This document shows, one piece after another, positions 21,374 to 60,943 of a stretch of 64,000 nt of DNA. The DNA is taken from positions 256,001 through 320,000 of the forward strand of contig CAWDKY010000015.1 in NCBI GenBank assembly GCA_963802945.1. The letters are read 5' to 3'. Each line of letters starts with the position of its first letter. Position 1 is the first letter of the stretch. The notes beneath the pieces were generated by a model that saw only the letters and a list, made by a program, of their open reading frames with translations, ran no database searches and was not told the origin of the DNA. The stretch comes from an uncultured delta proteobacterium (GTDB lineage: Bacteria > Desulfobacterota > RBG-13-43-22). Position numbers and translations under genes: made by a program.

Positions 21374-22075
21374 TCAGCTTCCAAATCGCAGGGCCAGCGT
21401 GGACTTAGCGTAACTCACCAAATATTTAACAAAGTCGGTCTTACTTTCTCCGCCCATGCGGAACTCATAGATTACCGGAACTTCCCGGATGACAAAGCCT
21501 GCCTTAAGGGCATAATGGATCAAGCGAATGCAATAATCGCCGTACCCATAAAAAATGGCCTTGTTTTTTACCTGATCCACTACCTTTCTTTTAAGGACTA
21601 AAAAGCCGCTCAGGTTGTCTTTTATCGGGGACCCCAAAACCAGACGAATAAAAATATTAAAGACCCAACTTCCCAGATAACGCAAGCAGGAGGTCTTCAT
21701 CCCCCCGCCGGAAATGTAACGGGACCCAATGACCATATCCGCTTCAGGAATTTGTTCCAGAAGCCTGGGTAGGTCCTTGGGGTGGTGGTTAAAATCCGTA
21801 TCCATAACGGCGATAATATCGGCTTGTGACTGCTCGATCCCTTTGGCTATGGCCGTGGCCAAACCCCGTTCTTCTTTTCTAAGAATTAGAAAGACCTCCG
21901 GTTGAGAAGAAAACCTTTTCCGTACTAGATCCGCCGTTCCATCCGGGCTGTTATCATCAACTACAATAATCTGTGATTTGACCGGCAAAGGGGCCAAAAC
22001 ATCCAAAATCGTCTGGATTAAATCTCCGATGTTTTCTTTTTCATTATAGGTCGGCAAAATAACTGAGAGTTTGAT
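21374..22075 (-). CDS. GT2 polyprenol-phosphate glycosyltransferase (Dpm1/ArnC-like); likely ATC start
   Basis: KLSVILPTYNEKENI, VVDDNSPDGT, RGLATA, MDTDFNH, GSRY. Confidence 0.88.
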   Translation of the reverse strand: MKLSVILPTYNEKENIGDLIQTILDVLAPLPVKSQIIVVDDNSPDGTADLVRKRFSSQPEVFLILRKEERGLATAIAKGIEQSQADIIAVMDTDFNHHPKDLPRLLEQIPEADMVIGSRYISGGGMKTSCLRYLGSWVFNIFIRLVLGSPIKDNLSGFLVLKRKVVDQVKNKAIFYGYGDYCIRLIHYALKAGFVIREVPVIYEFRMGGESKTDFVKYLVSYAKSTLALRFGS

Positions 22076-22087
22076 GGGTCGGTTCCT

Positions 22088-23182
22088 TTATTTATCTAAA
22101 AATATTTGGATCATCTCCGCGATATGGTCTTGTTCGGAGCGAGTCAGATTAAATCCCGATGGAAGGGAAATTCCACCTTTTGAAATTCGAGAGGCAACCG
22201 GGAAAGTCCCGTAATCCTGGTAGGGAGGCATGTCGGGTATCGGATAAAAAACAGGACGGCTTTCTACCTGGGCTTGAGCGAGAAAGTCTATCAGATCATC
22301 TCGATTCTTCTGTGTTTCAGGTTTTATTAATAGGCTATAGAGCCAAAAAATGGACTTGGCCCAGACCTCTTCAGATGGCAGGATCAGACCGGCATTTTTC
22401 TTAAGACCTTGAGTGTAATGGTTGGCTATTTCTCTTTTTCGTTCAATCAACCGATCCAGTTTAGTCATTTGCCCCATGCCGATTGCGGCCTGGATGTTGG
22501 TCATTCTGAAATTATAGCCCACTACCGGATGCCAATATTTCTTCTCTTTGGACATCCCATGATCGCGGAGCATACGGGCCTTTTCCACCCACTCGGAATT
22601 GTCGGTGGTGATCATCCCTCCTTCACCGGTGGAAATGATCTTGTTTCCATAAAAGCTGAAGCACCCCATATGCCCTAACGATCCCACTTTCTCCCCTTGA
22701 TATTCTGCGCCGTGGGCCTCGGCTGCATCCTCTATGACCCAAAGACGGTATTCCTCAGCCAATTTCATAATTGGCCCCATATCGGCTGGGTGTCCATAGA
22801 GATGGACCGGTATAATGGCCTTGGTATGCTCGGTGATCAAGGGCCTGATCAGAGAAGGATTTATGGTCCAGGTTTTTTCATCCACATCAGCGAAGACGGG
22901 CTTGGCCCCGACATAAACCACCACATTGGCGCTGGCAACAAAGCTTAAAGCCGGAACGATCACCTCATCGCCTGGACCGATCCCCAAGGTGAGTAAAGCC
23001 AAATGCAATGCTGTGGTTCCGTTTGAAGTGGCCACCCCGAATCGGGAGCCGCAAAAGCCGGAAAAGGCCTTTTCAAATTCGGCAATATATTTCCCCTGGG
23101 AGGAGATCCAGCCGGTTTTTAAACAATCCATGACTAAGTCGATCTCTTGCTGATCAAGCCAGGGCTCCATAATGGGAATCAT
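22088..23182 (-). CDS. GDP-perosamine synthase-like DegT/DnrJ aminotransferase
   Basis: WISSQG.YIAEFE, SNGTTALHLAL, IEDAAEAHG, FSFYGNKIISTGEGGM, GYNFRMTNIQAAIG; linked to gmd. Confidence 0.88.
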   Translation of the reverse strand: MIPIMEPWLDQQEIDLVMDCLKTGWISSQGKYIAEFEKAFSGFCGSRFGVATSNGTTALHLALLTLGIGPGDEVIVPALSFVASANVVVYVGAKPVFADVDEKTWTINPSLIRPLITEHTKAIIPVHLYGHPADMGPIMKLAEEYRLWVIEDAAEAHGAEYQGEKVGSLGHMGCFSFYGNKIISTGEGGMITTDNSEWVEKARMLRDHGMSKEKKYWHPVVGYNFRMTNIQAAIGMGQMTKLDRLIERKREIANHYTQGLKKNAGLILPSEEVWAKSIFWLYSLLIKPETQKNRDDLIDFLAQAQVESRPVFYPIPDMPPYQDYGTFPVASRISKGGISLPSGFNLTRSEQDHIAEMIQIFLDK

Positions 23183-23269
23183 AATAATCCTTTACTGAAC
23201 AGAAGCCATCGATAGCCTCAAAAAATAATATAGCTTAGTCTAACCAAAATGGGGGATAAAGTCAAAACG

Positions 23270-23329
23270 TTTCCTAGAAAGTCCCTTGAAGAAGGCATAA
23301 AAACTGCTATAGTCTGGCATTACGAAGAA
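23270..23329 (+). pseudogene. Tiny C-terminal remnant of an NAD-dependent epimerase/dehydratase
   Basis: Translates FPRKSLEEGIKTAIVWHYEE, matching the extended-SDR tail pattern SLEEGI...W. Confidence 0.45.
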
Positions 23330-23372
23330 ATCACTTTTCTTCACTCACAATGACTTTCTTGGAGACATTTTA

Positions 23373-24467
23373 CTAATGGATCATCTCTTGAAAAACCAAA
23401 TCATGGATGAAGGGCCTGAAGGATTTGATTTTTTCATTGGCCCGGGTGGGATGAATACGGTTAGCCAAAAGAATAACCAGAAAATCTCTTTCCAGATCCA
23501 GCCAAAAGGAAGTTCCTGTAAACCCAAGGTGACCTACACTTTTTTGAGAAAAATATCGGCCGGCACTGGAATCCGTCTCCGTTGGGGTATCAAAGCCGAG
23601 GGCCCTGGTTGTCCCTCTGGGCTCTTCCTGCCTTTGCCAAAAGATACGAACCCAATCCCCGTTAAAAAAATTCGGATTCTTGGGCTGGTCATAGGCCCTT
23701 TTTAAGGCTCTAATGAGTTGAAAAACTTCAAGGGCTGTTCCAAATAGACCAGCCTGTCCGGAAATCCCCCCCACTACATAGGTATTATCGTCATGGACTT
23801 CTCCCCGCAGGACTTTTTTACGCCACGGGCAGTCTTCGGTGGCGGCATAGGCCTCCGGATCAGGAACCCCGGACTGGGTTAATGGCCTGAATCCCAAATG
23901 GATTAGGCCCAGGGGAGTATAGACATTTTTTCGAATCCAGGCGTCCAATCCTTCTACGGCGGTCTCTTCAAAAATCCATTCCAGAAGAATAAAGCCAAGG
24001 TCGCTATAGAGGGTTTGGCTGCCAGATGGATATAATAAAGGTTCTTTTATAACCCAATTCCGAAGTATTGCTTTTTTGTCCCCCGATTGACGGATTAGAT
24101 CCAAATAATAGGGTTGATAAGCCGGGAATCCGGCCGAATGGGCCAAAAGGCGCCTAAGGGTGATCCCTTGTTTTTCGGGAGACTTGGTGCTGTCCCACCA
24201 AAATCCCAAGGGTTGATCCAATGATAACCGGCCTCTTTCGACCAGAGACATAATCCCCAAGGAAGTGGCCAAGGGTTTGGTCAAAGAGGCCAGGTCAAAA
24301 ATGGTTTCTGTGTTAAGGAGTTGCTTCTCTGGAATCACCGATGCATAACCATAAGCCTGATGAAGAAGTATTTCCTCTGCCCGGGCCGCCAATAAAACCG
24401 CCCCGGGGAATACTCCTTCCTTGACTGCGGAGTACATGACTTGGTGGATTTTTAAAAAAGATGACAT
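23373..24467 (-). CDS. Serine hydrolase, beta-lactamase/AmpC family
   Basis: FDLASLTK (SxxK), LLAHSAG, YSDLGF, GEVHDDN, GHLGFTGT. Confidence 0.9.
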   Translation of the reverse strand: MSSFLKIHQVMYSAVKEGVFPGAVLLAARAEEILLHQAYGYASVIPEKQLLNTETIFDLASLTKPLATSLGIMSLVERGRLSLDQPLGFWWDSTKSPEKQGITLRRLLAHSAGFPAYQPYYLDLIRQSGDKKAILRNWVIKEPLLYPSGSQTLYSDLGFILLEWIFEETAVEGLDAWIRKNVYTPLGLIHLGFRPLTQSGVPDPEAYAATEDCPWRKKVLRGEVHDDNTYVVGGISGQAGLFGTALEVFQLIRALKRAYDQPKNPNFFNGDWVRIFWQRQEEPRGTTRALGFDTPTETDSSAGRYFSQKSVGHLGFTGTSFWLDLERDFLVILLANRIHPTRANEKIKSFRPFIHDLVFQEMIH

Positions 24468-24564
24468 AACAGGACAAATAAAATCCGTTTTGCTGGCGAA
24501 AGTTCAAAGCTGAAAGCTGAAAGGGAAAGCTATTATTTTTGAACCTTGAGCTTTTAGGTTTCAG

Positions 24565-25473
24565 CTAAAAATGAATTGACAACAAACCTTTTTCGGCATC
24601 TAAGGCGGCAGGGGCTCCAATCGGAAAAGGGAAATTCCAGGAACCGTGGCCGATAGGTAATCCGGTCCAGACCGGAATATTCAGATCTCTTAAAATATCT
24701 TTGACCGCATCCTTGGGCAGTTCTTTTTGATTAGGCCCGGTAAACTTTCCCAGGAGGATGGCGGAAACCTTTCCCAAACAACCTCTTAATCTCAGATGGG
24801 TTAGAAGGCGATCCAGCCGGTAAGATTCTTCCCCGCAATCCTCAAGAAACAGGATGGCATCATCCCAGACAGGCTCGTAAGGGGTACCTATCAAGTGAAC
24901 CAGCAAGCTCAGGTTCCCGCCCATAAGTATACCCTTGGCGCTTCCCGGTAAAACAGCCCGATTTATGCTCAGGGGAAGTTGAATTTGGTAATGCCCCATC
25001 AACATTGCCTGTACTCTAACAAGGGTGGAATGATTTACTTTAGATAAGGTAGTCATCATAGGGCCGTGAAAAGTCATTAGATCGGCTTTTTTCCAAAAGG
25101 CCACCAGTAAGACGGTGACATCACTAAAGCCCATAAAGAGTTTTGGATGGGCTTTGATAATATTAAAATCCAGATAATCCAATATTCGCAGGGTCCCATA
25201 GCCGCCGCGAGAGCACAGAATGGCTTTTACTTCTGGATCGACAAAGAGTCGCATCAATTCTCCGGCCCGTTCCCGGTCGGTTCCGGCCAGATATCCTTTT
25301 CGGATGATCCTTTTCCTGCCCAAGGCCACCTGAAATCCCCATTGTTTTAAAAGATGAATCCCTTCCTCAAGGGCCTTGGCCTGATAAGGGCTGGCCGGAG
25401 TAGCAATTCCAATGGTATCTCCGGATTTAAGAAAAGGGGGGACGGTTAGCTTCTTTTTTTTTAGAGCTGACAT
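24565..25473 (-). CDS. ldcA: LD-carboxypeptidase (peptidase S66)
   Basis: SRGGYG, GFSDVT, HGPM, GGNLSL, LEDCGE, IGHG. Confidence 0.9.
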   Translation of the reverse strand: MSALKKKKLTVPPFLKSGDTIGIATPASPYQAKALEEGIHLLKQWGFQVALGRKRIIRKGYLAGTDRERAGELMRLFVDPEVKAILCSRGGYGTLRILDYLDFNIIKAHPKLFMGFSDVTVLLVAFWKKADLMTFHGPMMTTLSKVNHSTLVRVQAMLMGHYQIQLPLSINRAVLPGSAKGILMGGNLSLLVHLIGTPYEPVWDDAILFLEDCGEESYRLDRLLTHLRLRGCLGKVSAILLGKFTGPNQKELPKDAVKDILRDLNIPVWTGLPIGHGSWNFPFPIGAPAALDAEKGLLSIHF

Positions 25474-25487
25474 TTTACTGTTACTCT

Positions 25488-25970
25488 CTATAATTTGTAA
25501 CCGAATTTACGAAGGATATCCTTTCTCCAAAGCTGGCCTTCTTCCCCTTCCACACCCTGGGGAGAAAAGCCGTCTACAACACCCAGAACCCCTCGGCCTT
25601 GATCGGTTTGAGCCAGGACAACCTCTGTCGGATTGGCTGTGGCGCAATAGATGGAACAGACTTCCGGACAGTTTTTGACGGCATTCAAGACATTGATGGG
25701 AAAGGCCTGGCGAAGAAGGATATTGAAGGTATGGCCGGCCGCGATATTTCTGGCGTTGTTGACGGCCGCTGTCTCTAATTCCGGATCGTTGCCTATAGTT
25801 CGAACCAGGCAATCACCCGAGGCCTCACAAAAAGCCAATCCGAACTTGATCCCCGGCACGGATCCGATGAGGATTTCATAGAGGTCTTCCACGGTTTTAA
25901 TAAAATGGGTCTGCCCAAAAATAATATTGGCCCCTTCCGGGATTTCCAGCTTTTGAACAATCAATTCCAT
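25488..25970 (-). CDS. Adenosine-specific kinase family (DUF355)
   Basis: GQTHFIKTVEDL, FCEASG, AGHTF, FPINVLN, CATANP, GRGVLGVVDG, GYKL. Confidence 0.88.
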   Translation of the reverse strand: MELIVQKLEIPEGANIIFGQTHFIKTVEDLYEILIGSVPGIKFGLAFCEASGDCLVRTIGNDPELETAAVNNARNIAAGHTFNILLRQAFPINVLNAVKNCPEVCSIYCATANPTEVVLAQTDQGRGVLGVVDGFSPQGVEGEEGQLWRKDILRKFGYKL

Positions 25971-26049
25971 GGTCTCCCTCCTATTAGTCGCTCATAGTCT
26001 ATAGATCATAGAAAATGTCTTGCCTTGTCTCTTATCACCCTTCACCCCC

Positions 26050-26418
26050 ATTACGGCATCTCCAAGACTTCCTGACCTTTTTTGACAATTCAATAACCGG
26101 GTAAGGCTTTTGAATAAAGGCTTTACAACCTTTATCGATAAGTTGTGCAGCCTGCCCATCGATGATGTACCCGCTGGACAGGAGAACCTTCAGCTTGGAT
26201 TCAATTTCCTTAAGCTGCTCGTAGGTCTGACTTCCTTATAAGTCAGGATGGATCTTGTCCCGGATAAGCAAAGAGATTTCCTAATGTTTTTTCCGGAACA
26301 GGGAAATCGCCGCTTGACCGCTACTGGCCGGCAATACGATATACCCCAAGTTCTCCAGGATTTCCCTGGTTACTGTCAGGACCTCATCATCATCATCTAC
26401 TAAACTTATGTTCTCAAT
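26050..26418 (-). pseudogene. Degraded response-regulator receiver domain
   Basis: ISLVDDDEV..LENLGYIVLPASSGQAA..*..*..KVLLSSGY..FIQKPY with in-frame stops at 26281-83 and 26236-38. Confidence 0.75.
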
Positions 26419-26446
26419 CAGCTCCTTTTATTCCACTATTGCAAGG

Positions 26447-27049: not shown

Positions 27050-27256
27050 ATTAAATCCCTCTTTCTTAAATTGAAGTGGAAGTGAAATACGTTTGGACTT
27101 CAGATTGGTGAATTTTTACACTAAATTCCAAACTCAAATCGTATTCAATCCTCATGTCTGCCTGGTTCGAGCACCACGAAACATGTAAATGATTTTAAAG
27201 GTTCAATCCCGCCAGAGGCGGGACAAGATCCTCGAACCCTATGTTCGTTTAAAATA

Positions 27257-27601: not shown

Positions 27602-27616
27602 GAACGGTCTCCTTGA

Positions 27617-32630: not shown

Positions 32631-33323
32631 TTATAAAAGATTATTTTCCAAAAAACTGAAGTGGCCTTCCCGCCCAATAATTAAATGATCGTGGACCTTA
32701 ATCTGAAAATTATTGGCAGCGCGGGCTAACGTACGGGTTAGTTCCCGATCCTCCGGAGAAGGACGGGGGGAGCCTCCGGGATGGTTGTGGACCAGAATCA
32801 GGGCCGTTGCTTTCAACCGTATAGCACTCTCCATGACCTTTCGGGGATAGACAACGGTTTGATCCACCGTTCCCTCTTGTAAAACTTCTTCTTCAATAAC
32901 TTGATTTCGGGTATTCAGGTAGATCATCCGAAACTGTTCGTCCTTCAGCCATCCCATCTTAGACTGACAATAGGTTATCAGATCTCCGGGAGAGGTGATA
33001 ACATTTTGAGAATTAAGGAAACGATCGCGAAGATACCGCTCTGAGGCGGCTTTAACTAATTTAAAGAGTAAGGCGCTATGCTTCCCTACTCCTTTGACTT
33101 CCTTTAATTCTTCCAGAGGGGCCTCTACGATCCCTCGTAACGAACCAAACCTCTTTATTAAATCCTTGGCCAGGGGTTTGGTATCCTTCCTGGCTTGGGC
33201 ATAGTTCAAAATAAATTCCACTACTTCGTAATCTTGAAATGAATCCAACCCCGCCCGCAGAAAGCGGTCTTTTACTCGCCTTCGATGACCCACATAATGG
33301 GGAACTTCTTCACCCTGAGGAAT
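32631..33323 (-). CDS. radC: RadC/JAB-domain protein; likely ATT start
   Basis: PHYVGHRRR, DTKPLAK.LI.RFG, GTVDQTVVYPR, HNHPGG.P.PS.ED, HDHLII. Confidence 0.92.
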   Translation of the reverse strand: MPQGEEVPHYVGHRRRVKDRFLRAGLDSFQDYEVVEFILNYAQARKDTKPLAKDLIKRFGSLRGIVEAPLEELKEVKGVGKHSALLFKLVKAASERYLRDRFLNSQNVITSPGDLITYCQSKMGWLKDEQFRMIYLNTRNQVIEEEVLQEGTVDQTVVYPRKVMESAIRLKATALILVHNHPGGSPRPSPEDRELTRTLARAANNFQIKVHDHLIIGREGHFSFLENNLL

Positions 33324-33675
33324 AAAAAACCCTCCTTGGCATGAAGTGCTATGCCCAAAGACTTAAGTTAATAAAAAGCGCTGCCGCAATCCAAGGTCTT
33401 ATAAAGTCTATTATTTTATCATAGCTGTTTTAAAAAAAACAATTATTTTTTTAGCGACACCAGACCTCTTTTTTCGTTCTAAACCCTCACACCCCAGAGG
33501 TGCACCAGGAAACATGAAAATTATTCTAAGGATTCAAGTCCCACCATCGGCGGGATCGAACTCTATTTTCGTGTTAACTTACTAAAGAGGTTAACCATCC
33601 ATTACCAAAATCCTTGTTTCCTTTTAAATACTTTGGTATATTTAATTATCTCGTAAACGGCAATCAGGGGGACTT

Positions 33676-35802: not shown

Positions 35803-36489
35803 ATGCATATACCTGACGGCTACCTGAGTCCTCAAACCTATGTACCCCTCTACGGGGCGTCTTTCGTCTTCTGGTCTATCGCCCTTAGGAAGATGAAGAA
35901 AGAGCTTTCTATTAAACATATCCCCTATCTGGCTATGTCGGCGGCTTTTTCCTTTCTCATCATGATGTTTAATGTGCCTATTCCGGGAGGCACCACGGGC
36001 CATGCGGTCGGCGCCGGGATTATCGCCATTCTGCTTGGGCCGTGGACGGCAGTTATAGCCGTGTCCGTCAGCCTGATCATTCAGGCGATAGTTTTTGGCG
36101 ACGGCGGAATAACCACGATAGGTGCAAACTGTTTCAATATGGCGGTGGTGATGCCCTTCGTCTCTTATTGGATATTCAGACTTATAAGAGGAAATGCCAA
36201 TGGCGGAGTGAGATTATCCATCGCAGCCTTTCTCTCCGGTTATGTCGGTCTTTCTGTTGCCGCGGCCTTCACCGGAATTGAATTCGGGATCCAGCCTATG
36301 CTGGCGATCGGACCTGGCGGAAGACCTCTCTATGCGCCTTACCCGTTGTCTGTGGCTCTGCCGGCCATGGTATTGGAGCATATGCTGTTATTCAGCATTG
36401 TTGAGGGAATAGTCACCGTATTGTTATTCAGGTATTTTGCTAAGCACGAGCCCGATTTGATCTATGCCTTGAGGGCAAAGGAGGCATGA
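35803..36489 (+). CDS. cbiM: Ni/Co ECF substrate-binding component CbiM/NikM
   Basis: MHIPDGYL N-terminus, PGGTTGHAVG, GDGGIT. Confidence 0.93.
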   Translation: MHIPDGYLSPQTYVPLYGASFVFWSIALRKMKKELSIKHIPYLAMSAAFSFLIMMFNVPIPGGTTGHAVGAGIIAILLGPWTAVIAVSVSLIIQAIVFGDGGITTIGANCFNMAVVMPFVSYWIFRLIRGNANGGVRLSIAAFLSGYVGLSVAAAFTGIEFGIQPMLAIGPGGRPLYAPYPLSVALPAMVLEHMLLFSIVEGIVTVLLFRYFAKHEPDLIYALRAKEA

Positions 36490-36490
36490 A

Positions 36491-36826
36491 ATGACAAAAC
36501 TTCATAAGAAACTCTGGATAGGCCTGCTCATTCTGACACTACTTACCCCGTTGGGGGTCATCCTCCCCGAAAAATTCAAAGCCGAGGGAGCATGGGGTGA
36601 ATGGGGCCCGGAAGAACTCCAGAAACTTATTGGTTATGTGCCGGAAGGATTAAAGAGATTGGCCGATCTCTGGAAAGCCCCGGTCCCCGACTATAACTTC
36701 GGTGGAGAAGGGGCTTCCCTGACCGTTCAGGTTCTCTCCTATATCGTTTCAGGACTTATCGGAATCCTGGCCATCGGTCTTGTTATCTACGTAATTTCAA
36801 AGGTTATCGTGAGGAATGGAAAATAA
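36491..36826 (+). CDS. PDGLE-domain ECF accessory protein (NikN-like)
   Basis: Two TM helices, AWGEWG, APVPDY. Confidence 0.8.
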   Translation: MTKLHKKLWIGLLILTLLTPLGVILPEKFKAEGAWGEWGPEELQKLIGYVPEGLKRLADLWKAPVPDYNFGGEGASLTVQVLSYIVSGLIGILAIGLVIYVISKVIVRNGK

Positions 36827-37742
36827 AGTCCCCTCATTCCTGCTGGAAAGGCCATCCTCTAATTCTTTTATTCGGGGGAAGGGCTCACTGAAAAGTTCTT
36901 TTATCGACAAGGGCATTCATCAGCTGGCAGAGGTCGTCAAGACCGTGTATGTCCAGGGAGAAATGGTATCGAGCGATAATTTTTTTCAGAAGATCGATGC
37001 CAGGGTAAAAGTCCTCTTCCTCCTTTATTATATAATTATCGTGAGCCTAAAAAAAGACATTCCATCGGAATTTTTGATTGGCGTCTTTGTTTTCATGTTG
37101 ACGTTGCTATCAGGCCTGGATATTTTCAACCTTTATAAGCGCGTCCTCTTCTTTACTTTCCTCTTCGGTTTTTGCATCGCCTTTCCCTCTGCTCTCAGCA
37201 TCATTACCAAAGGCGAAATCGTTCTTCCGATACTGCACTTTACAAAAACCCATCGCTTATGGATATATCAGATACCTGAAGAAATCGGCCTTACCAGGGA
37301 AGGATTGTATGGCGTTCTGATGCTTACCTTGAGGGTTATGAACTCTCTAGCCCTTTCATTCTTTGTATTATATACAACGTCCTTCACCGAGATCATAAAA
37401 GCTCTTAAGGTGTTGAAGGTTCCAGACAGCTTTCTTATGATCTTGACCCTTTCTTATAAGTATGTGTTCATTTTCGCCAATACGATTGAAAATATGCACC
37501 TGGCCAAGAAAAGCAGATTGGCTGGGAAAGTGAGTAATGCAGAAGCCAGGGGATGGATCGCGGGAAGACTGGCCTTCCTGTTCAAAAAGAGTGCGCGGCG
37601 GGGTGAAGATATTTTCAAGGCCATGCTCGGCAGAGGCTATTCGAACCACATAAATATTTACGGGGTCAAGAAGCTCCAGGCACGTGATTGGATTGCGGGG
37701 GCTGTCCTTTTTCTGGTTGGGGTTCTATTTCTATGGATGTGA
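36816..37742 (+). CDS. cbiQ: ECF T component CbiQ/NikQ
   Basis: IDARVK, KALK.LKVP, AKKSR, AMLGRGY. Confidence 0.9.
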   Translation: MENKVPSFLLERPSSNSFIRGKGSLKSSFIDKGIHQLAEVVKTVYVQGEMVSSDNFFQKIDARVKVLFLLYYIIIVSLKKDIPSEFLIGVFVFMLTLLSGLDIFNLYKRVLFFTFLFGFCIAFPSALSIITKGEIVLPILHFTKTHRLWIYQIPEEIGLTREGLYGVLMLTLRVMNSLALSFFVLYTTSFTEIIKALKVLKVPDSFLMILTLSYKYVFIFANTIENMHLAKKSRLAGKVSNAEARGWIAGRLAFLFKKSARRGEDIFKAMLGRGYSNHINIYGVKKLQARDWIAGAVLFLVGVLFLWM

Positions 37743-51977: not shown

Positions 51978-52073
51978 TACTGGATACTGGATAAAAACAA
52001 AAAGTTTTTTTAAAGATCAACCTGGAATTTTTTCCAGCATCCAGTATCCAGCATCGGGTGTTTAAGGGTAAGA

Positions 52074-53322
52074 ATGTCTTTTGAATTATTTGTCAGTTAC
52101 ACGCTATCTCAAGGCCAAAAGGAAACAGACCTTTATTTCCATCATCACTTTTATCTCCATAGGCGGAGTCACTCTGGGGGTTATGGCCCTGATTGTTGTT
52201 ATAGCGGTAATGAGCGGTTTTGAAAATGACTTGAAAAATAAAATCCTGGGGCTGAATTCCCATGCCCTGGTTTTAAGCTGGGACAATGCCATAGAAAATT
52301 ATGCTCAGGTGGCCCGGCGGGTCGAATCGGTTTCCGGGGTAACCGCGGCCACTCCATTCATCCTGACCCAGGTCATGGTAAGCACCGGGAGTCAGGTGAC
52401 CGGGGCCGTTCTTCGAGGGATCGATATCCATAGCGCTCCAAAGGTGATTTCCCTGGATCGCATATTAAAGAAAGGGACCTGGCAGGCCTTGGAAGACCCT
52501 TCTCTGACTGAAGGACAAAAAGGTCAAGAATTGCGGGGTATCATTTTAGGCCAGGAGTTGGCCAAGAGCCTAGGCCTTTCTTTAAACGATACCTTGTCCC
52601 TCATTTCCCCTCTGGGGGAAATGACGCCCTTAGGGAGAATCCCCAAGATGAGACCTTTCAGGCTGGTAGGGATTTTTGAGTCAGGGATGTTTGAATACGA
52701 CTCCACCATAGCCTTTGTTTCCCTTTCTCAAGCCCAGTCTTTTTTGGGACTGGGCAGTAAAGTGACCGGTCTGGAACTCAAAACCCGGGATGTCTATAAA
52801 GCGGCTGAGATCGCCCGGGACATTCAGACCAAACTGGGTTTTCCCTTTTGGACCAAAGACTGGATGCGGATGAACAAAAATCTGTTCTCGGCTTTAAAAT
52901 TGGAAAAACTGGTCATGTTTATCATCCTGACCCTGATTATCCTGGTGGCGGCCTTTAATATCGTGGCCTCTTTAATCATGGTGGTCATGGAAAAAACCAA
53001 GGATATCGCCATCCTCAAATCCATGGGGGCAACGTCCGGAAGCATCATGAAGATCTTTATGCTGGAAGGGATGATTATTGGAACAGTGGGCACGGCTCTG
53101 GGACTGCTGGGCGGCGTGGGTTTATGCTGGATTCTTGAAAAATATCAGTTTATCAAATTACCCAGTGACGTTTATTATATCTCCTCCTTGCCGGTATTGA
53201 TGAAGGGGTGGGATATATTGATAATCGTGGCTTCCGCTTTGGGGATCAGCTTGCTGGCTACCCTGTATCCGGCCTGGCAGGCCTCCCGTCTTGATCCGGC
53301 CGAAGCCATAAGGTATGAATAA
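52074..53322 (+). CDS. lolE: Lipoprotein-releasing ABC permease LolC/E (indel near 52098)
   Basis: MSFELFVS then RYLKAKRK, VMSGF, LVAAFNI, IAILKSMGA, LYPAWQA.RLDPAEAIRYE. Confidence 0.92.
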
Positions 53323-54067: not shown

Positions 54068-56722
54068 ATGCCGAAGAAAATCATTTTCATCTTGATGGTT
54101 TTTTCAATGATTCAATTTCTGAATAGGCCAAACGTCCAGGCTGCTTCAGAGGGCACAGTGGCCCTGATGCCTTTTACCATATACAGCCAGATCAACTTGG
54201 ACTATCTGCAACAAAATATTTTGGAGGCCCTTTCCAACGGATTAAGCCAACAAAATATCCCCGTCCTGCCCCTTTCCAAAACCCAACCTTGGCTGACCAA
54301 AAAGATCCCCAGTGACCGGAAAGAACTGCGGGCCATAGGAAAACAACTGGAAGCGGATTTCCTGATCTATGGCAGCCTGACCAAGATCGGTCAACGACTG
54401 ACCCTGAACGGAAATCTCCTGGAGATTAAGACCGAAAAACCCCCTCTGACCTTTTCCTTGACGGAAGAAGGATTGGAAAATATTCTGAAGTTAATGGAGA
54501 GATTTTCAAAAGAATTAGGGTTAAGGATTTTAGGTCAGGAAAAGATTGCCGGGATCTCCATTAAGGGGAATCAAAGGATTGAGGCCCAAGCCATAGAGAA
54601 AGAACTCAAATCAAAAATCGGTGAGGCCTATAGGCCGGAACTCCTGGATCAGGACCTTCGGGCCATTTTCAAAATGGGTTATTTTTCCGATGTAAAATTG
54701 GAGGTGAATCAAACCCCACAGGGGAAAGCGATCACCTTTGTGGTTGAGGAACGTCCTTTTGTTAAAAGAATCGATTTCAAAGGATACAAAGAAATCAAAG
54801 AGGATGACCTCAAAGAGCAGCTGACCATCAAGCCTTATACTATTTTAAATTTAAACACGGTTAATGAAACTTTGGAGAAGCTGACGGTCTATTACCAGTC
54901 AAAAGGATATTATAATGTCCAGATTACTTATTCGGTTACTTACGAGGAAAAAGGGCAAGGTGCTGTAATCGTCTATACTATCGTGGAAGGGAAAAAAGTC
55001 TATATCAAAACTATTGCCTTCCAAGGGAACAAAAGTTTTTCTGAAAAAAAACTGAAAGCCATCATGGAAACCAATGAGAAGGGGATTTTTTCCTGGATCA
55101 CATCCTCCGGTGTTTATAAAAAGGAGTTGCTGGAACAGGACCTGGAAAAATTATCTTCCTTTTATTACAACCATGGATACTTAAAGGCCAAAGTGGGGGA
55201 ACCAACCGTCCGGCACGAAGGAAACTGGTTGTATTTAACCATCCCTATCGAGGAAGGGCAGCCTTATCACATGGGTCAGGTGGGCGTCAGCGGGGATTTG
55301 ATTCAACCTCAAGACAAATTAATGACCTCCTTGGCCATTACCAAAGAAAATTTTTATAATCGAGAGGTGATCCGCAAGGATATTTTGATGCTTAATGATC
55401 TTTATGCCTCTGAAGGGTATGCCTTTGTCGAAATCAACCCTCAAATCAAGGAAGATCCGTCCGGTTTCAAGGTTGATCTCGTTTATGATATCAAAAAAGG
55501 GTCCAAGGTTTATTTCGAACACATTGACATTGTCGGAAACGTAAAAACCCGGGATAAAGTCATTCGAAGGGAATTCAAGATGTCAGAAAAAGACCTTTTT
55601 GATCCCACGGCCCTCAGGAAAACCAATGAAAACCTACACCGCTTGGATTTTTTCGAAGAGATCAATCTTTCGACTTCTCCGGGCAGCCAGGAAGATCGCA
55701 TGAAATTGAAGGTGGAAGTCAAGGAAAAGATGACCGGCTCCTTTTCCGTGGGGGCGGGATACAGTGCCGTAGAACAGGTTTTGCTTATGGGGCAGATTGC
55801 TGAAAAGAATCTTTTTGGGACCGGAAACCGTATAAGCCTGGATGCCCAACTCGGGGCCGTGACCACCCTTTATAGACTGAGTTTTTTCCAGCCCTACCTA
55901 TTTGATACCCAGATTTCATGTGATAGCAGTATTTATAAATGGATCTATCTCTATGATCAATACGAGAAAGACAGTTACGGAGGATCGTTGACTTTCGGCT
56001 ATCCTATCCCGATAGAATACACCAGGGCGTTTCTTACCTATGCTTACGAGGACGCCAGCGTGACTCAGGTTCATGATGACGCCGCTCAGGTTATCAAGGA
56101 TATGGCCGGCGAACATCAAACCAGCAGTGTTACTTTAACCCTTAAAAGGGATACGAGGGATTCGATCTTTAATACCACCAAGGGTTCGATTAATAGTGTT
56201 TCTGTGACATATGCCGGCGGCCCTCTCGGAGGAAGCAATTATTTTACCAGGTATGTCGCCACTTCAGGTTGGTATTTCCCCCTTTTTTGGGACACTACTT
56301 TTTTTGTTGGCGGCAAAGGGGGGTATATTACCCAAAATTCCGGGGGAGATTTGCCCCTGTATGAAAAATTTTATTTAGGCGGCATCAATTCGCTTCGGGG
56401 ATTTAAAGTTTTCTCCGTCAGCCCTTTGGATCCAAGAACTTACGACCCGATCGGCGGCGAGCAGATGGTGCAATTTAATGTGGAATATATATTTCCCTTG
56501 GTTCCAAAGATCGGGATTAAGGGACTTGTTTTCTTTGATGCTGGCAATGTTTTTAGCAAAGACCAGACGTTTGATTTAGGGTCCTTACGACAAAGCGTGG
56601 GGGTGGGAATCCGTTGGTACTCCCCGATGGGGCCTCTGCGCCTGGAATTTGGCTGGGATTTTAATCCCCAGCCCCACGATCAGACCGACCCCATAGAATT
56701 CAGTATAGGGGGATCTTTTTAA
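54068..56722 (+). CDS. bamA: Outer membrane protein assembly factor BamA with extra N-terminal domain
   Basis: POTRA repeats, GNVKTRDKVIRRE, LRGF, SPMGPLRL, C-terminal F. Confidence 0.95.
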   Translation: MPKKIIFILMVFSMIQFLNRPNVQAASEGTVALMPFTIYSQINLDYLQQNILEALSNGLSQQNIPVLPLSKTQPWLTKKIPSDRKELRAIGKQLEADFLIYGSLTKIGQRLTLNGNLLEIKTEKPPLTFSLTEEGLENILKLMERFSKELGLRILGQEKIAGISIKGNQRIEAQAIEKELKSKIGEAYRPELLDQDLRAIFKMGYFSDVKLEVNQTPQGKAITFVVEERPFVKRIDFKGYKEIKEDDLKEQLTIKPYTILNLNTVNETLEKLTVYYQSKGYYNVQITYSVTYEEKGQGAVIVYTIVEGKKVYIKTIAFQGNKSFSEKKLKAIMETNEKGIFSWITSSGVYKKELLEQDLEKLSSFYYNHGYLKAKVGEPTVRHEGNWLYLTIPIEEGQPYHMGQVGVSGDLIQPQDKLMTSLAITKENFYNREVIRKDILMLNDLYASEGYAFVEINPQIKEDPSGFKVDLVYDIKKGSKVYFEHIDIVGNVKTRDKVIRREFKMSEKDLFDPTALRKTNENLHRLDFFEEINLSTSPGSQEDRMKLKVEVKEKMTGSFSVGAGYSAVEQVLLMGQIAEKNLFGTGNRISLDAQLGAVTTLYRLSFFQPYLFDTQISCDSSIYKWIYLYDQYEKDSYGGSLTFGYPIPIEYTRAFLTYAYEDASVTQVHDDAAQVIKDMAGEHQTSSVTLTLKRDTRDSIFNTTKGSINSVSVTYAGGPLGGSNYFTRYVATSGWYFPLFWDTTFFVGGKGGYITQNSGGDLPLYEKFYLGGINSLRGFKVFSVSPLDPRTYDPIGGEQMVQFNVEYIFPLVPKIGIKGLVFFDAGNVFSKDQTFDLGSLRQSVGVGIRWYSPMGPLRLEFGWDFNPQPHDQTDPIEFSIGGSF

Positions 56723-56828
56723 CACGAAAGTAGGGTTCGAGGATTCCAGGATTCGAGTCCCGTCTGTGGCGGGATTGGCCCCGGGACCCCAGGAATCCTT
56801 TTAATTAATATCAGTCAGGAGACCAAAT

Positions 56829-57374
56829 ATGATCAAATTTTTTTTAAAAAGTACTGTTTTTGTGTCTGGTATTATTCTTCTATGGGTTGCCGTTCCTTCC
56901 TGGGCCGCCGAGTCTGTTAAAGTCGGAATTATTGATTTACAGAAATGCATCCAGCAATCCGAGGCCGGCAAAAGGGCTTCGAAAATTCTGCAAGACAAAG
57001 CGGATCACATCAAAAAGGATTTGGAAGCCAAACGGGAAGAATTGAAGAAACTGAGCGAGGATTTCAATAAAAAAAGCCAAGTCCTGAGTGCAGATGCCAA
57101 GAGAGAAAGAGAACAGGAACTGATCCAGAAAGATGCAGATTTAAGGGAACTGGTTCGTAAAAAAGAAGAAGAAATGCACAAAGATGAATATAACGCCATG
57201 CAGCCTCTTTTAAATGAGTTGTTTGAGATTACCAAAAAAATGGCCAAAGATGAAGGTTTTACCCTGATCCTGGAGTCCAAAACCGGGGTGGTTTATTTCA
57301 ATAAACCCGTCGAGGAAATAACCGATAAAGTCATCAAAATCGCCAACGAAACCAAAAAGGAAAAAAAGAAATAA
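56829..57374 (+). CDS. skp: Skp/OmpH chaperone
   Basis: KVGIIDLQK..S.AGK, coiled coil, position after bamA. Confidence 0.88.
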   Translation: MIKFFLKSTVFVSGIILLWVAVPSWAAESVKVGIIDLQKCIQQSEAGKRASKILQDKADHIKKDLEAKREELKKLSEDFNKKSQVLSADAKREREQELIQKDADLRELVRKKEEEMHKDEYNAMQPLLNELFEITKKMAKDEGFTLILESKTGVVYFNKPVEEITDKVIKIANETKKEKKK

Positions 57375-57376
57375 GC

Positions 57377-58463
57377 ATGAAGACGCCGGCGGCATCCCCT
57401 TCTGGGGTATCTTTGGAGCAACTGGCCCGGCTGGTTGGAGGAGAGGTCCGAGGGGTCTGTGAGAATTTGGTTGTCGGTATTACCGGGATCCGGGAGGCCC
57501 AAAAGGGTCAGATCACTTTTTTGAGTAATCCCAAATACGGCAAAGACCTGGAAACGACCCAGGCTTCGGCCGTTATTGTGGGATCGCCAATTTCCTCAAA
57601 CCTCCAAAGCCTTTATTAATAACCTCCAATCCTTATCTGGCCTATGCCAGGATCGCCCAGTTTTTTGCCCCCAACCCGATCACCCATGGGCATCAGTTCC
57701 TTGGCCCATTGCGGTGAGGATTGCCGAATCGGGGAAAAGGTCTCCATTTATCCCTTTGTCTATCTGGGAAACCGGGTGGAGATTGAAGACGGTGTTATTC
57801 TTTATCCCGGGGTTTATGTGGGGGATTCGGTCCGGATCGGGAAGGATTCCATTATTTATCCCAACGTTTCCATCCTTTCGGGAACCATCATCGGGCAACG
57901 GGTTATCATTCACAGCGGGACGGTGATCGGTAGTGACGGTTTTGGTTTTGCCCAGGACGGGATGATCCATGTCAAGATTCCTCAAACGGGCATCGTCCAG
58001 ATTGACGATGACTGCGAAATCGGGGCCAATAATACCATCGACCGGGCGGCCTTGGGCAAGACCTGGATCAAGACCGGGGTTAAAACAGACAACTTGGTTC
58101 ATGTGGCCCATAATGTGGTGGTCGGTGAACACTCTCTTCTGATCGCCCAGGTGGGTATCTCTGGGAGTACCACCTTGGGTAAAGGGGTCATTCTGGCCGG
58201 CCAGGTCGGTGTGGTCGGGCATATCACCATCGGGGATGGGGTTATGGTGGGGGCCAAATCGGGGGTGGCTAAATCCATTCCAGCCGGTGAAGTGGTTTCG
58301 GGAATACCGACAATGCCACATCAGACCTTTTTACGCACCCGATTTCTCATTCAACGATTGCCTAAGATGGACAAAATAAATACGGGCCTTGGAAGATCGG
58401 GTTCGTCTCTTGGAGGCTGAGATCACAAAAGAGAGAAAGAAAGACTATGGAAATAAGTCATGA
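57377..58463 (+). CDS. lpxD: UDP-3-O-acylglucosamine N-acyltransferase (several small indels near 57600, 57670, 58376)
   Basis: [51 protein letters not shown]. Confidence 0.92.
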
Positions 58464-58911
58464 GGAAATCCAAAAGATTCTGCCCCATCGATATCCCTTT
58501 TTACTGCTGGATCGGATATTGGAATTCACTCTAAATGAGAAGGTGATCGGTTTGAAAAATGTGACGATCAATGAACCTTTTTTCCAGGGTCATTTCCCGG
58601 GAAAACCGATCATGCCCGGAGTATTGATTATTGAGGCTATGGCCCAGGCCGGAGGGATCCTGGCTGTTAAATCCAACTTCCAACAACTGGGAAACAAACT
58701 AGCCTATTTCCTGGCCATCGATAAAGTTAAGTTCAGAAAACCGGTGGTTCCGGGAGATCAACTAATTTTGGAATTGACGGCCTTACGCCGGGGGCAAAAG
58801 GTCTGGAAGATGCAGGGCAAGGCCTTTGTCCGGGAAAGTTTAGTGGCTGAGGCGGAACTAACCGCCTCTTTTTCTGATGATAAAGATACGCCGCCCGGTG
58901 AGGAGGTTTAA
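58447..58911 (+). CDS. fabZ: 3-hydroxyacyl-ACP dehydratase
   Basis: [31 protein letters not shown]. Confidence 0.96.
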
Positions 58912-59693
58912 TGTCTAAATATGCCATTCATCCAACAGCTATCATAGGCCCTCAAACCAAACTGGGAGAAAATGTCTCTATCGGACCGTACTCGATAATC
59001 GAAGAAGAAGTTTTTATTGATTCCGGGACTCAAATCGGGGCTCATGTATTTATCGATCGCTACACCCGAATCGGAAAGAATTGCCTGATTTCCCCTTTTG
59101 CCTCTATCGGCGGCCCGCCTCAGGATTTAAAATTCAAAGGGGAAAAAACCAACTTGATTATTGGCGATGAAAACAACATTCGCGAATATGTCACGATCAA
59201 CCGAGGAACTGCAGGAGGAGGAGGTTCAACCACCATAGGTAATCAGAACCTGTTAATGGCCTATTGTCATGTGGGGCATGATTGCCAATTGGGTAATGGA
59301 ATTATTATGGGTAATTTAACCACGTTGGCCGGTCATGTGGTCCTCGAAGATTATTCCCGTCTTTATGCCCTGGTAGCTGTCCAACAATTCGTCCGGGTGG
59401 GTGCCTATGCCATGGTAGGAGGAAAAACAGGGGTATTAAAGGATATTCCTCCTTATGTTATTGTCTCTGGGGATAGGGCCAAATTATTCGGCCTGAACAC
59501 CATTGGATTGAAACGCCATAATTTTTCCAATGAAACGATTGAGGCGCTTAAAAAGGCTTACCAGATTATGATTCGCTCCCATTTGATCCTCAAAGAGGCC
59601 CTGAAGCGGGTTGAAAAGGAGGTCCCTGCCTTTCCGGAGGTAACCCGGTTTTTGGACTTTATTAGAAATTCACAACAAGGAATAACCCGCTGA
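58911..59693 (+). CDS. lpxA: UDP-N-acetylglucosamine acyltransferase
   Basis: Hexapeptide repeats, PQDLKF, IREYVTINRGT, HVGHDC, LAGHV. Confidence 0.95.
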   Translation: MSKYAIHPTAIIGPQTKLGENVSIGPYSIIEEEVFIDSGTQIGAHVFIDRYTRIGKNCLISPFASIGGPPQDLKFKGEKTNLIIGDENNIREYVTINRGTAGGGGSTTIGNQNLLMAYCHVGHDCQLGNGIIMGNLTTLAGHVVLEDYSRLYALVAVQQFVRVGAYAMVGGKTGVLKDIPPYVIVSGDRAKLFGLNTIGLKRHNFSNETIEALKKAYQIMIRSHLILKEALKRVEKEVPAFPEVTRFLDFIRNSQQGITR

Positions 59694-60505
59694 TGATGAA
59701 ACAAGCTCCCATTGGGCTTATCGCCGGTAATGGAAATTTCCCCCTGTTGATCGCCAAAGCGGCCCGGCAGGAAGGAAAAAAAATTGTGGCCATAGCTCAT
59801 GTGGGAGAAACGCTTCCGGAACTGGAGCCCCTGGTGGATAAAATTTTTTGGATCCGTCTCGGGGAATTCGGGAAATTAGTCCGCACACTGCAAAAGGAAG
59901 GGGTTAAAGAAGTCCTGATGGCTGGCCGGGTGGATAAAAAAAAGATGTTTTCCAAAGCCCAACCAGATACGGAAGGGCGAGATCTCCTTAGTAGGCTGGT
60001 GCATCGGAAGGACGACTTAGTCTTGCGAATGGTTGCCGCCGAATTAGAAAAAAAAGGATTTCACGTTTGTTCTTCTACTGCATTTCTACCCTCTTTATTG
60101 GCCCCTCAGGGGGTCTTGACCAGGCGTCATCCTACTGCCGAGGAAGAAAAGGACATTGAATTCGGGTGGCCCCTGGCCAAGGAACTCGGTAAGCTCGATA
60201 TCGGACAGTGCTTGGTGGTTCGAAACAGGGCTGTAGTGTCTGTGGAAGCCATTGAAGGAACCGATGAGACCATAAGGAGAGGGGGTAAACTGGCCCAAGA
60301 AAAGGCAGTGGTCATTAAGGTCAGTAAGCCGATACAAGACCTTCGCTTTGATCTGCCGGCTGTTGGAGAGAAGACCATTCTGACTATGCATGAAGTCCAA
60401 GCCGGGGTTTTGGCCATAGAGGCTCATAAAACTATTATCTTTAACCGGGAGGAGACTGTTCGATTGGCAAATAGGTATAGGATGGTAATTGTTTCGAGGG
60501 AGTAA
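59693..60505 (+). CDS. lpxI: UDP-2,3-diacylglucosamine pyrophosphatase LpxI
   Basis: GLIAGNG.FP, LDIGQ, EAIEGTD, QDLRFDLP.VG. Confidence 0.92.
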   Translation: MMKQAPIGLIAGNGNFPLLIAKAARQEGKKIVAIAHVGETLPELEPLVDKIFWIRLGEFGKLVRTLQKEGVKEVLMAGRVDKKKMFSKAQPDTEGRDLLSRLVHRKDDLVLRMVAAELEKKGFHVCSSTAFLPSLLAPQGVLTRRHPTAEEEKDIEFGWPLAKELGKLDIGQCLVVRNRAVVSVEAIEGTDETIRRGGKLAQEKAVVIKVSKPIQDLRFDLPAVGEKTILTMHEVQAGVLAIEAHKTIIFNREETVRLANRYRMVIVSRE

Positions 60506-60592
60506 AAATAAAAAACGTTCGTCGTTCGGCGACCCCAGTTTTTATGGTTTTACTGTTCGCCGCAAGCAGGCATGAGAGCTTACTAAAAACGA

Positions 60593-60943
60593 ATGAATAA
60601 AGTCAAAGTCGGCATAGCCGGGGTCGGACACCTAGGGAAATACCATTGGGAAAAATCTGCCCAAATGCCGGATGTGGCATTGGTGGGTATGGCCGAGATT
60701 CTCCTAGAGCGACGGAAAGCCATTTCAAGGCAATATGATATCTCCTGGTATGAAGATTATCATCGACTGATTCCCAAAATTGCAGCTGTCAGTATCGTTG
60801 TGCCGACCATCCTACACGCCCGGGTGGCTAAGGATTTTTTACACCACCGAATCGATGCCTTGATTGAAAAGCCCATCAGTCGATCCCCAGTTGAGGCGGA
60901 AGAATTGATTTCTCTGGCCAAAACGAAGGAGCTAAGCGATTAA
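60593..60943 (+). pseudogene. Truncated Gfo/Idh/MocA oxidoreductase (GnnA-like), Rossmann domain only
   Basis: GVGHLGKYH, VSIVVPT..H, LIEKP; stops at 116 aa directly at lpxB. Confidence 0.75.

What the first reader, a model, noticed from the sequence alone, without database searches (positions are those of the whole stretch)
22075..60941. Three unrelated genes appear to start at non-canonical ATT/ATC codons behind good Shine-Dalgarno sequences
Seen in sequence: radC (-) AAGGAGG-7nt-ATT(33323) CCT CAG GGT..PHYVGHR; lpxB (+) AAGGAG-7nt-ATT(60939) AAA AAA ATA TGT..IAGEASGD; GT2 (-) AAGGA-8nt-ATC(22075) AAA CTC TCA..KLSVILPTYNE. In each case an in-frame stop lies upstream and no ATG/GTG/TTG precedes the conserved N-terminal motif. 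Established: AUU starts are rare (infC, pcnB) because IF3 discriminates against them. Inference: three cases in 64 kb could mean relaxed initiation fidelity (variant IF3 or anti-SD) or a translational regulon tied to IF3 level. The other apparent errors here are mostly indels, not substitutions, which argues weakly against artefact.
Basis: partly seen in the sequence, partly recalled or inferred. Interest (0 to 1): 0.72.

Follow-up and report, generated by a model that had tools for sequence, protein, structure and literature searches.

The report
Conserved ATT/ATC start codons, three genes
Three ordinary genes (radC, lpxB and a family-2 glycosyltransferase) of an uncultured sulfate-reducer-type bacterium most likely begin at the weak start codons ATT or ATC, and related species keep these codons, so this is a maintained way of keeping protein output low rather than a sequencing error or a sign of sloppy translation.

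Summary

They are not errors.
- radC keeps ATT in 12 of 12 same-genus loci and in 4 of 4 loci of another genus.
- The GT2 gene keeps ATC in 16 of 16 orthologues.
- lpxB has ATT (6) or ATC (9) in 15 of 17 family loci, and never ATG, GTG or TTG at that column.
- The downstream GTG and TTG codons are not conserved.

Two more conserved ATT starts turned up: an acyl-CoA ligase and an HflX-type GTPase. infC has a conserved ATA.

- SD-anchored ATT/ATC/ATA counts across the genome are near background.
- Only 3 of 948 orthologue pairs with one relative show such a start.
- The anti-SD, the initiator tRNA and the IF3 residues R25, Q33, R66 and Y75 are canonical.

One caveat concerns radC. Related strains have T5 where this assembly has T6, which puts an SD-less ATG in frame.

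This is a new member of a known kind (infC, pcnB, S. aureus ccpN and cvfC1). The scan has reported the same class on other DNA.

The parts
33321..33323 (-). radC proposed ATT initiation codon
   Evidence: ATT CCT CAG is present in 12 of 12 same-genus loci, and ATT ATT in 4 of 4 loci of another genus of the family.
33331..33337 (-). radC Shine-Dalgarno AAGGAGG, 7 nt before the ATT
   Evidence: A GGAGG-type motif followed by a T-rich spacer is conserved in relatives.
33324..33329 (-). T6 run between SD and ATT. Its length decides whether the upstream ATG (33342-33340) is in frame.
   Evidence: contigs of 4 of 4 runs have one T fewer at 33324. L002 also has T5, which reads MPRRVFIPQ....
32631..33323 (-). 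radC coding region (230 aa plus stop)
   Evidence: NCBIfam NF000642 scores 216 bits (cut-off 180) and Pfam RadC scores 146.5 bits.
60939..60941 (+). lpxB proposed ATT initiation codon. It overlaps by one base the TAA (60941-60943) of the truncated upstream ORF.
   Evidence: ATT (6) or ATC (9) in 15 of 17 family loci.
60926..60931 (+). lpxB Shine-Dalgarno AAGGAG, 7 nt before the ATT
   Evidence: TAAGGAG is conserved in same-genus loci.
60939..62076 (+). lpxB coding region. In this assembly it is split by a frameshift in a C9 run (61089-61097).
   Evidence: Pfam LpxB model positions 1-47 match residues 4-50. The nearest relative has an intact 379-aa frame.
22073..22075 (-). GT2 proposed ATC initiation codon
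   Evidence: ATC in 16 of 16 orthologous loci.
22084..22090 (-). TAA stop of the upstream DegT-type aminotransferase gene, running straight into the SD (TAAAGGA)
   Evidence: the arrangement TAA-AGGAG-N7/8-ATC is kept in the same-genus loci.
21374..22075 (-). GT2 glycosyltransferase coding region (233 aa plus stop)
   Evidence: Pfam Glycos_transf_2 scores 105.8 bits, with model positions 1-166 on residues 4-168.

Best explanation
radC, lpxB and the GT2 glycosyltransferase are translated from genuine near-cognate initiation codons (AUU, AUU, AUC). Each is positioned by a good Shine-Dalgarno site 7-8 nt upstream. The standard initiator tRNA would pair imperfectly at the third codon position, so initiation is inefficient and IF3 discriminates against it. 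The result would be low protein output that is sensitive to IF3 level, as described for infC, pcnB and the S. aureus genes ccpN and cvfC1. The codons were fixed before the family of this Thermodesulfobacteriota lineage diversified and have been kept since. They belong to a small set in this genome, at least five genes plus infC, and not to a genome-wide habit. Shown here: the sequence layout, the conservation, the lack of a conserved alternative start, and a canonical translation apparatus. Inferred: that ribosomes initiate there, and that the purpose is low or IF3-sensitive expression.
For: - Layout is as described.
- radC: ATT in 12 of 12 same-genus loci. Codon 11 is a canonical start codon in only 3 of 11 in-register loci (GTG, GTG, TTG); the rest are GTA, GCA, ATA or TTA. 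ATT ATT sits behind an AAGG-type SD in 4 of 4 loci of another genus. In 7 of the 9 listed more distant loci an in-frame ATG lies just upstream of the conserved motif.
- GT2: ATC in 16 of 16 orthologues. Codon 7 is TTG in 5 of 16 and TTA, CTA or CTG in the others. All 7 paralogue or distant rows start at ATG, GTG or TTG.
- lpxB: ATT 6, ATC 9, GCC 1 and GTC 1 among 17 family loci. All 7 loci outside the family have ATG or GTG nearby.
- The start codon is more constrained than ordinary Ile codons. GT2 column 1 uses one codon, against 0 of 5 other invariant-Ile columns. In radC, 0 of 6 invariant-Ile columns use a single codon.
- Pfam domains begin at residue 4 of GT2 and LpxB.
- Further conserved cases: acyl-CoA ligase ATT in 5 of 5 relatives; HflX-type GTPase ATT in 4 and ATC in 1 of 5.
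- infC has ATA behind AGGAGGTGAT, and one relative has the same.
- Published precedent: conserved AUU/AUA starts behind extended SD sites give about 10% of AUG reporter output in S. aureus (PMC13009471, passages read).
Against: - There is no direct evidence of initiation: no proteomics, Ribo-seq or reporter data.
- radC in this genome has an in-frame GTG at codon 11. Family models start only at residue 8-18, so a shorter protein is conceivable.
- If the T6 run is really T5, as in 4 of 4 runs and the nearest relative, an SD-less ATG six codons upstream is in frame.
- For lpxB, the two loci of genus g2 also have an in-frame GTG three codons upstream, and the two loci of genus g3 have GCC or GTC at the column.
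- lpxB in this assembly is frameshifted, and its upstream neighbour is truncated by a 560-bp deletion that ends beside the SD.
- The public runs gave no cover at the GT2 start.
Confidence: 0.78

Rival explanations
1. In this genome the real starts are canonical codons: GTG at radC codon 11 or the upstream ATG if the T run is T5, TTG at GT2 codon 7, and a later TTG in lpxB. On this view the ATT/ATC codons are untranslated or ordinary Ile codons.
For: The in-frame GTG and TTG exist. RadC family models begin at residue 8-18. T5 in 4 of 4 runs and in L002 puts the ATG in frame.
Against: These codons have no SD and are not conserved. radC codon 11 is canonical in 3 of 11 loci and GT2 codon 7 is TTG in 5 of 16. 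A TTG start would remove Pfam GT2 model positions 1-3. A later lpxB start would remove the conserved GEASGD stretch that all 24 loci share. The upstream radC ATG is seen only in this genome and L002.
Confidence: 0.1
2. The lineage has relaxed start-codon fidelity (a variant IF3, anti-SD or initiator tRNA), so ATT/ATC starts are common genome-wide.
For: Three cases lie in 64 kb. At least five conserved ATT/ATC genes plus infC are in one genome. SD-anchored ATT and ATC are 1.40x and 1.69x expectation before duplicates are removed.
Against: After removing 14 rows from 7 copies of one repeated ORF and 2 rows from duplicate copies, ATT is 24 against about 23.6 expected and ATC is 25 against about 19. 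ATA is 20 against about 20.7. Other codons reach similar ratios (TCG 1.77). Only 3 of 948 orthologue pairs show a credible shared ATT/ATC/ATA start, and shared Ile columns (8) are no more frequent than Lys (10) or Ser (8) columns. The anti-SD, initiator tRNA and IF3 residues R25, Q33, R66 and Y75 are canonical. infC keeps a non-AUG start, which only makes sense if IF3 still discriminates.
Confidence: 0.06
3. For the operon-internal genes (GT2, lpxB, HflX-type), initiation at ATT/ATC depends on ribosomes that terminate at the upstream gene's stop 11-15 nt away. On this view translational coupling by re-initiation, and not de novo 30S binding, is what makes the weak codon usable.
For: The upstream stop abuts or overlaps the SD in GT2 (TAAAGGA), in most same-genus lpxB loci (TAAGGAG) and in the HflX-type gene. 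Re-initiation in E. coli is known to respond to IF2 and IF3 levels (PMC2268962, abstract read).
Against: radC and the acyl-CoA ligase gene have intergenic upstream regions with no adjacent stop of an upstream gene, so coupling cannot be the general explanation. This is a refinement of the best explanation rather than an exclusive rival.
Confidence: 0.2
4. The ATT/ATC codons are sequencing or assembly errors of ATG in an indel-prone assembly.
For: The assembly has homopolymer frameshifts.
Against: The same codons occur in 11-16 independent assemblies of other species. No difference at 33321-33323 appears among the 40 rows shown for four public runs, though 377 rows were not shown.
Confidence: 0.01

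Closest known systems
E. coli infC and pcnB AUU start codons
   Same: A near-cognate AUU behind an SD site limits translation and is discriminated against by IF3. These are the only two confirmed non-canonical starts in E. coli (bioRxiv 10.1101/063800, passages read). This genome's own infC has a conserved ATA.
   Different: The genes differ (radC, lpxB, GT2, acyl-CoA ligase, HflX-type GTPase). AUC is used as well as AUU. No experimental proof exists, and conservation is shown only within one uncultured family.
S. aureus ccpN (AUA), cvfC1 (AUU) and infC (AUA): conserved non-canonical starts behind extended SD sites
   Same: A handful of genes per genome have a non-AUG codon and a strong SD that are both conserved among relatives, giving reduced output of about 10% of AUG (PMC13009471, passages read).
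   Different: The S. aureus starts were mapped by retapamulin ribosome profiling and reporters, whereas here there is only comparative evidence. The SD sites here are 5-7 nt and not unusually extended.
Earlier reports of this scan on other DNA (conserved ATT/ATC/ATA starts, for example manC in an Omnitrophota genome)
   Same: Same pattern: SD, then an ATT/ATC start kept by relatives, and gene callers likely to cut the protein short (AI notes, unchecked).
   Different: Different genes and lineages. I did not test those claims.

Membership tests
SD-led near-cognate (AUU/AUC) initiation codons of the infC/pcnB type | No in-frame ATG/GTG/TTG between the upstream stop and the conserved N-terminus | tested here: met
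   Caveat for radC: an upstream ATG comes into frame if the T run is T5.
SD-led near-cognate (AUU/AUC) initiation codons of the infC/pcnB type | SD site at a working distance from the codon | tested here: met
   Spacers are 7, 7 and 8 nt. In this genome, SD sites of ATG genes peak at an aligned spacing of 4-9.
SD-led near-cognate (AUU/AUC) initiation codons of the infC/pcnB type | The non-canonical codon is conserved among orthologues while alternative starts are not | tested here: met
   radC 12 of 12 plus 4 of 4; GT2 16 of 16; lpxB 15 of 17.
SD-led near-cognate (AUU/AUC) initiation codons of the infC/pcnB type | Initiation shown at the codon (N-terminal peptide, toeprint, ribosome profiling or reporter) | not testable with these tools
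   The organism is uncultured. Only DNA contigs of related strains were available.
SD-led near-cognate (AUU/AUC) initiation codons of the infC/pcnB type | Expression responds to IF3 level | not testable with these tools
Relaxed-fidelity initiation apparatus | Altered 16S anti-SD | tested here: not met
   The 16S 3' end is GGATCACCTCCTTTCT.
Relaxed-fidelity initiation apparatus | Initiator tRNA lacking the three G-C pairs, or an extra initiator-like tRNA that reads AUY | tested here: not met
   Of 50 tRNAs, 3 are CAT and 1 is GAT. The initiator has a mismatched first acceptor pair and three G-C pairs next to the anticodon loop.
Relaxed-fidelity initiation apparatus | IF3 changed at residues tied to start-codon fidelity (R25, Q33, R66, Y75 in E. 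coli numbering) | tested here: not met
   All four are identical in the alignment to E. coli IF3. Their roles are taken from PMC9723500 and PMC7145577 (passages read).
Relaxed-fidelity initiation apparatus | Genome-wide excess of SD-anchored ATT/ATC/ATA starts | tested here: not met
RadC family (NCBIfam NF000642) | Score above the curated cut-off | tested here: met
   216 bits against a cut-off of 180.
LpxB (Pfam PF02684) | Score above the gathering cut-off, with the N-terminus of the model covered | tested here: met
   The 52-aa N-terminal piece scores 34.4 bits against 22.6, on model positions 1-47. This piece alone does not reach the TIGR00215 cut-off (22.6 against 190).
Glycosyltransferase family 2 (Pfam PF00535) | Score above the gathering cut-off | tested here: met
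   105.8 bits against 23.3. No NCBIfam equivalog cut-off is reached, so the substrate is unknown.

The most novel reading that the evidence does not exclude
The AUU/AUC-started genes of this family (radC, lpxB, an envelope glycosyltransferase, an acyl-CoA ligase, an HflX-type ribosome GTPase, and infC itself) form a small, anciently fixed translational regulon. Its output would rise and fall together with IF3 availability, for example during slow growth or stress. That would link envelope synthesis, DNA repair and ribosome rescue to the state of the translation machinery.
Probability: 0.1. Interest if true: 0.6.

Novelty: new member of a known kind. Interest (0 to 1): 0.3.

Why it matters
Automatic gene callers that allow only ATG, GTG and TTG will probably cut these proteins short or shift their starts. 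For LpxB and GT2 that removes the first strand of the nucleotide-binding fold. The case adds well-conserved examples, including lpxB and an HflX-type GTPase, to the short list of bacterial genes kept on weak AUU/AUC start codons. It shows that such codons can stay fixed across a whole family. It also shows that a local cluster of such starts need not mean an altered translation apparatus.

Tried and rejected
- Crude SD-anchored codon counts over all long ORFs were too noisy. The filter even excluded two of the three focal genes.
- The list of orthologue pairs with no shared canonical start near the alignment start was uninformative. It mostly flagged normal ATG or TTG starts behind conserved leaders; the FtsH-like gene, for example, turned out to start at TTG.
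- One search did pick up prfB and two TGA (selenocysteine) genes, which are ORFs that lack a canonical start.
- The stand-alone LigD-phosphoesterase ORFs with ATT (3 copies) are not supported by relatives. In 3 of 3 matches the domain lies inside longer ORFs, and 2 of 5 genomes had no match.
- The GltX (ATA), ADP-forming acetyl-CoA synthetase-like (ATA) and other candidates were not followed up. By eye, several clearly have ATG starts a few codons further on.
- No extra initiator-like tRNA was found.
- Public runs hold only related strains, with at most 0.25 of the sampled words.
- Literature: a search for lpxB + 'start codon' + ATT found 0 papers. A search for conserved AUU/AUC starts among orthologues listed nothing relevant among the 12 shown.
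Full report
**What is there.**
The window is G000:C15:256001-320000 of a 4.37-Mb, 72-contig, 47% G+C assembly. Titles of related records place it among uncultured Thermodesulfobacteriota.

| gene (strand) | SD | spacer | start codon | in-frame stop upstream |
|---|---|---|---|---|
| radC (-) | AAGGAGG 33337-33331 | GTTTTTT (7 nt) | ATT 33323-33321 | TAA, 13 codons, no ATG/GTG/TTG between |
| lpxB (+) | AAGGAG 60926-60931 | 7 nt | ATT 60939-60941 | TAA, 2 codons |
| GT2 (-) | AAGGA 22088-22084 | 8 nt | ATC 22075-22073 | TAA of the upstream aminotransferase gene, 4 codons |

The family assignments hold.
- RadC scores 216 bits on NF000642 (cut-off 180).
- Pfam Glycos_transf_2 scores 105.8 bits, with model position 1 at residue 4.
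- Pfam LpxB model positions 1-47 fall on residues 4-50.

**Not an artefact.**
I fetched the orthologous loci from 30 relatives.

radC:
- All 12 same-genus loci carry ATT CCT CAG (ATT CAT CCG in one) behind a GGAGG-type SD and a T-rich spacer. One of the 12 is out of register because of a downstream indel.
- The in-frame codon 11, GTG here, is a possible start in only 3 of 11 in-register loci. Elsewhere it is GTA, GCA, ATA or TTA.
- Four loci of another genus of the family have ATT ATT behind an AAGG-type SD.
- Of the 9 more distant loci listed, 7 show an in-frame ATG just before the conserved PHY..GHR motif and 2 were unclear.

GT2:
- All 16 orthologues, down to 58% identity and spanning three genera, have ATC.
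- Codon 7 is TTG in 5 of 16 and TTA, CTA or CTG in the rest.
- All 7 paralogue or distant rows use ATG, GTG or TTG.

lpxB:
- The 17 family loci have ATT (6), ATC (9), GCC (1) and GTC (1) at the column.
- The 7 loci outside the family have ATG or GTG nearby.

The start codon is also held more tightly than an ordinary isoleucine codon. In GT2 it is one codon in 16 of 16 loci, while all 5 other invariant-Ile columns use two or three codons. In radC all 6 invariant-Ile columns vary, whereas ATT at the start does not. lpxB toggles between ATT and ATC but never shows G or A at the third position.

**How common it is.**
Within the genome I counted codons that lie 4-9 nt (aligned spacing) behind an exact SD of at least 5 nt. 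I required them to lie within 30 codons of the upstream stop of a coding-like ORF, with no earlier canonical codon.

| codon | observed | expected | after removing repeats |
|---|---|---|---|
| ATT | 33 | about 23.6 | 24 |
| ATC | 32 | about 19 | 25 |
| ATA | 20 | about 20.7 | not recounted |

Fourteen of the ATT/ATC rows are seven copies of one repeated ORF, and two more are duplicate copies. Other codons show ratios as high (TCG 1.77). There is therefore no genome-wide signal.

I then compared the genome with 2.4 Mb of one same-genus relative, G008.
- This gave 948 reciprocal-best ORF pairs at 60% identity or more, of which 323 have a shared canonical start with a shared SD.
- Columns with Ile codons in both genomes behind an SD in both numbered 8, no more than Lys (10) or Ser (8).
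- By inspection, 3 of the 8 are credible starts: GT2, an HflX-type GTPase and infC. That is about 0.3%.
- lpxB is missed by this screen because its first ORF piece is only 65 aa.
- The looser screen did pick up prfB (programmed frameshift) and two TGA (selenocysteine) genes, so the approach detects ORFs without canonical starts.

**Further members.**
- An acyl-CoA ligase-like gene (G000:C16:259532) has ATT behind GGAGG in this genome and in 5 of 5 relatives searched, including another genus.
- An HflX-type GTPase with a long N-terminal extension (G000:C15:525008) has ATT in 4 of 5 relatives and ATC in 1. The SD follows the upstream gene's stop directly.
- infC has ATA 8 nt (aligned spacing) behind AGGAGGTGAT, identical in G008.

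This makes at least five conserved ATT/ATC genes plus infC in the genome, and three of them happen to lie in this window.

**The translation apparatus is ordinary.**
- The 16S 3' end is GGATCACCTCCTTTCT.
- There are three tRNA(CAT) and one tRNA-Ile(GAT). The initiator has the mismatched first pair and three G-C pairs.
- IF3 scores 220 bits (cut-off 60). Aligned to E. coli IF3 it keeps R25, Q33, R66 and Y75. These residues are tied to start-codon fidelity in PMC9723500 and PMC7145577 (passages read).
- A conserved non-AUG start on infC is what one expects if IF3 still discriminates.

**Most likely mechanism.**
The SD places the 30S subunit so that AUU or AUC sits in the P site. The normal initiator tRNA pairs with a third-position mismatch, so IF3 rejects most such complexes and output is low and dependent on IF3 level. 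This step is inferred from E. coli and S. aureus work (10.1101/063800, passages; PMC13009471, passages).

For GT2, for lpxB in most relatives, and for the HflX-type gene, the upstream stop codon abuts the SD. Terminating ribosomes may therefore contribute. radC and the ligase gene have intergenic leaders, so coupling is not general.

**Caveats.**
1. Nothing shows initiation directly.
2. In radC, contigs of 4 of 4 public runs (related strains, about 95% alike) and the nearest relative have T5 where this assembly has T6. This assembly demonstrably has homopolymer indels. With T5, an ATG six codons upstream that has no SD and is absent from the other species comes into frame.
3. lpxB here is split by a C9 run, and its upstream Gfo/Idh/MocA-type ORF is cut to 118 aa by a 560-bp deletion ending beside the SD. 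The overlap ATTAA is therefore specific to this genome.
4. The census rests on one relative and on exact SD motifs.

**Comparison and novelty.**
This is the infC/pcnB and ccpN/cvfC1 kind of weak start, found in new genes and a new lineage. Two literature searches found no report for these genes. The library lacks most subscription journals, and I saw no supplements. The scan has reported the same class several times on other DNA. Verdict: a real, conserved and ordinary mechanism.

Noticed in passing
window 61089-61097: A C9 homopolymer splits lpxB into 65-aa and 337-aa ORFs. The nearest relative reads on in frame to 379 aa, so this is an assembly indel or a recent pseudogene.
   Followed up: partly
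window 60587-60943: A Gfo/Idh/MocA-type ORF is only 118 aa long. About 560 bp present in the nearest relative (G005, locus L034) are missing here, with the junction beside the lpxB SD. The relative's copy is itself in several frames.
   Followed up: partly
window 20358-21321 (- strand): A GDP-mannose 4,6-dehydratase-like gene (identified by eye) is split into two ORFs near 20533-20546, probably by another indel.
   Followed up: no
window about 52071-52110 (+ strand; G000:C15:308071): A membrane permease-like gene (LolE-like by eye) loses its ATG frame through a one-base difference from the G008 orthologue, which starts MSFEFFVSYRYLK.
   Followed up: no
G000:C15:525008-526624 (+ strand; outside the window): An HflX-type GTPase with a roughly 200-aa N-terminal extension starts at ATT directly after the upstream gene's stop and SD. 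Relatives have ATT in 4 and ATC in 1 of 5.
   Followed up: yes
G000:C16:259532-261109 (+ strand; outside the window): An acyl-CoA ligase-like gene has a conserved ATT start behind GGAGG (5 of 5 relatives).
   Followed up: yes
G000:C17:80360-80863 (- strand): infC most likely starts at ATA behind a 10-nt SD (AGGAGGTGAT). An ATG lies inside the SD itself. The arrangement is identical in G008.
   Followed up: partly
G000:C27 (- strand, reverse-complement offsets 35886-37113) and G000:C15:184992-185367 (+ strand): Two ORFs begin right after a conserved in-frame TGA in both genomes (..SA-TGA-SLPYYIG, which by eye resembles a CoA-disulfide-reductase, and TGA-PVCHQTV). They are probably selenoproteins, and a tRNA-Sec is present.
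   Followed up: no
G000:C16, C26, C27 (2 copies), C28, C30, C33: Seven copies of an ORF beginning IILFEDESGFSLHPRLG lie behind AAGGAAGAAGA. By eye this looks like the second frame of a transposase. They inflate ATT/ATC counts.
   Followed up: no
G000:C22:4438, C23:4422, C30:2338 (- strand): Three copies of a stand-alone LigD-phosphoesterase-like ORF (identified by eye) could start at ATT behind GGAGG. In relatives the domain sits inside longer ORFs.
   Followed up: partly
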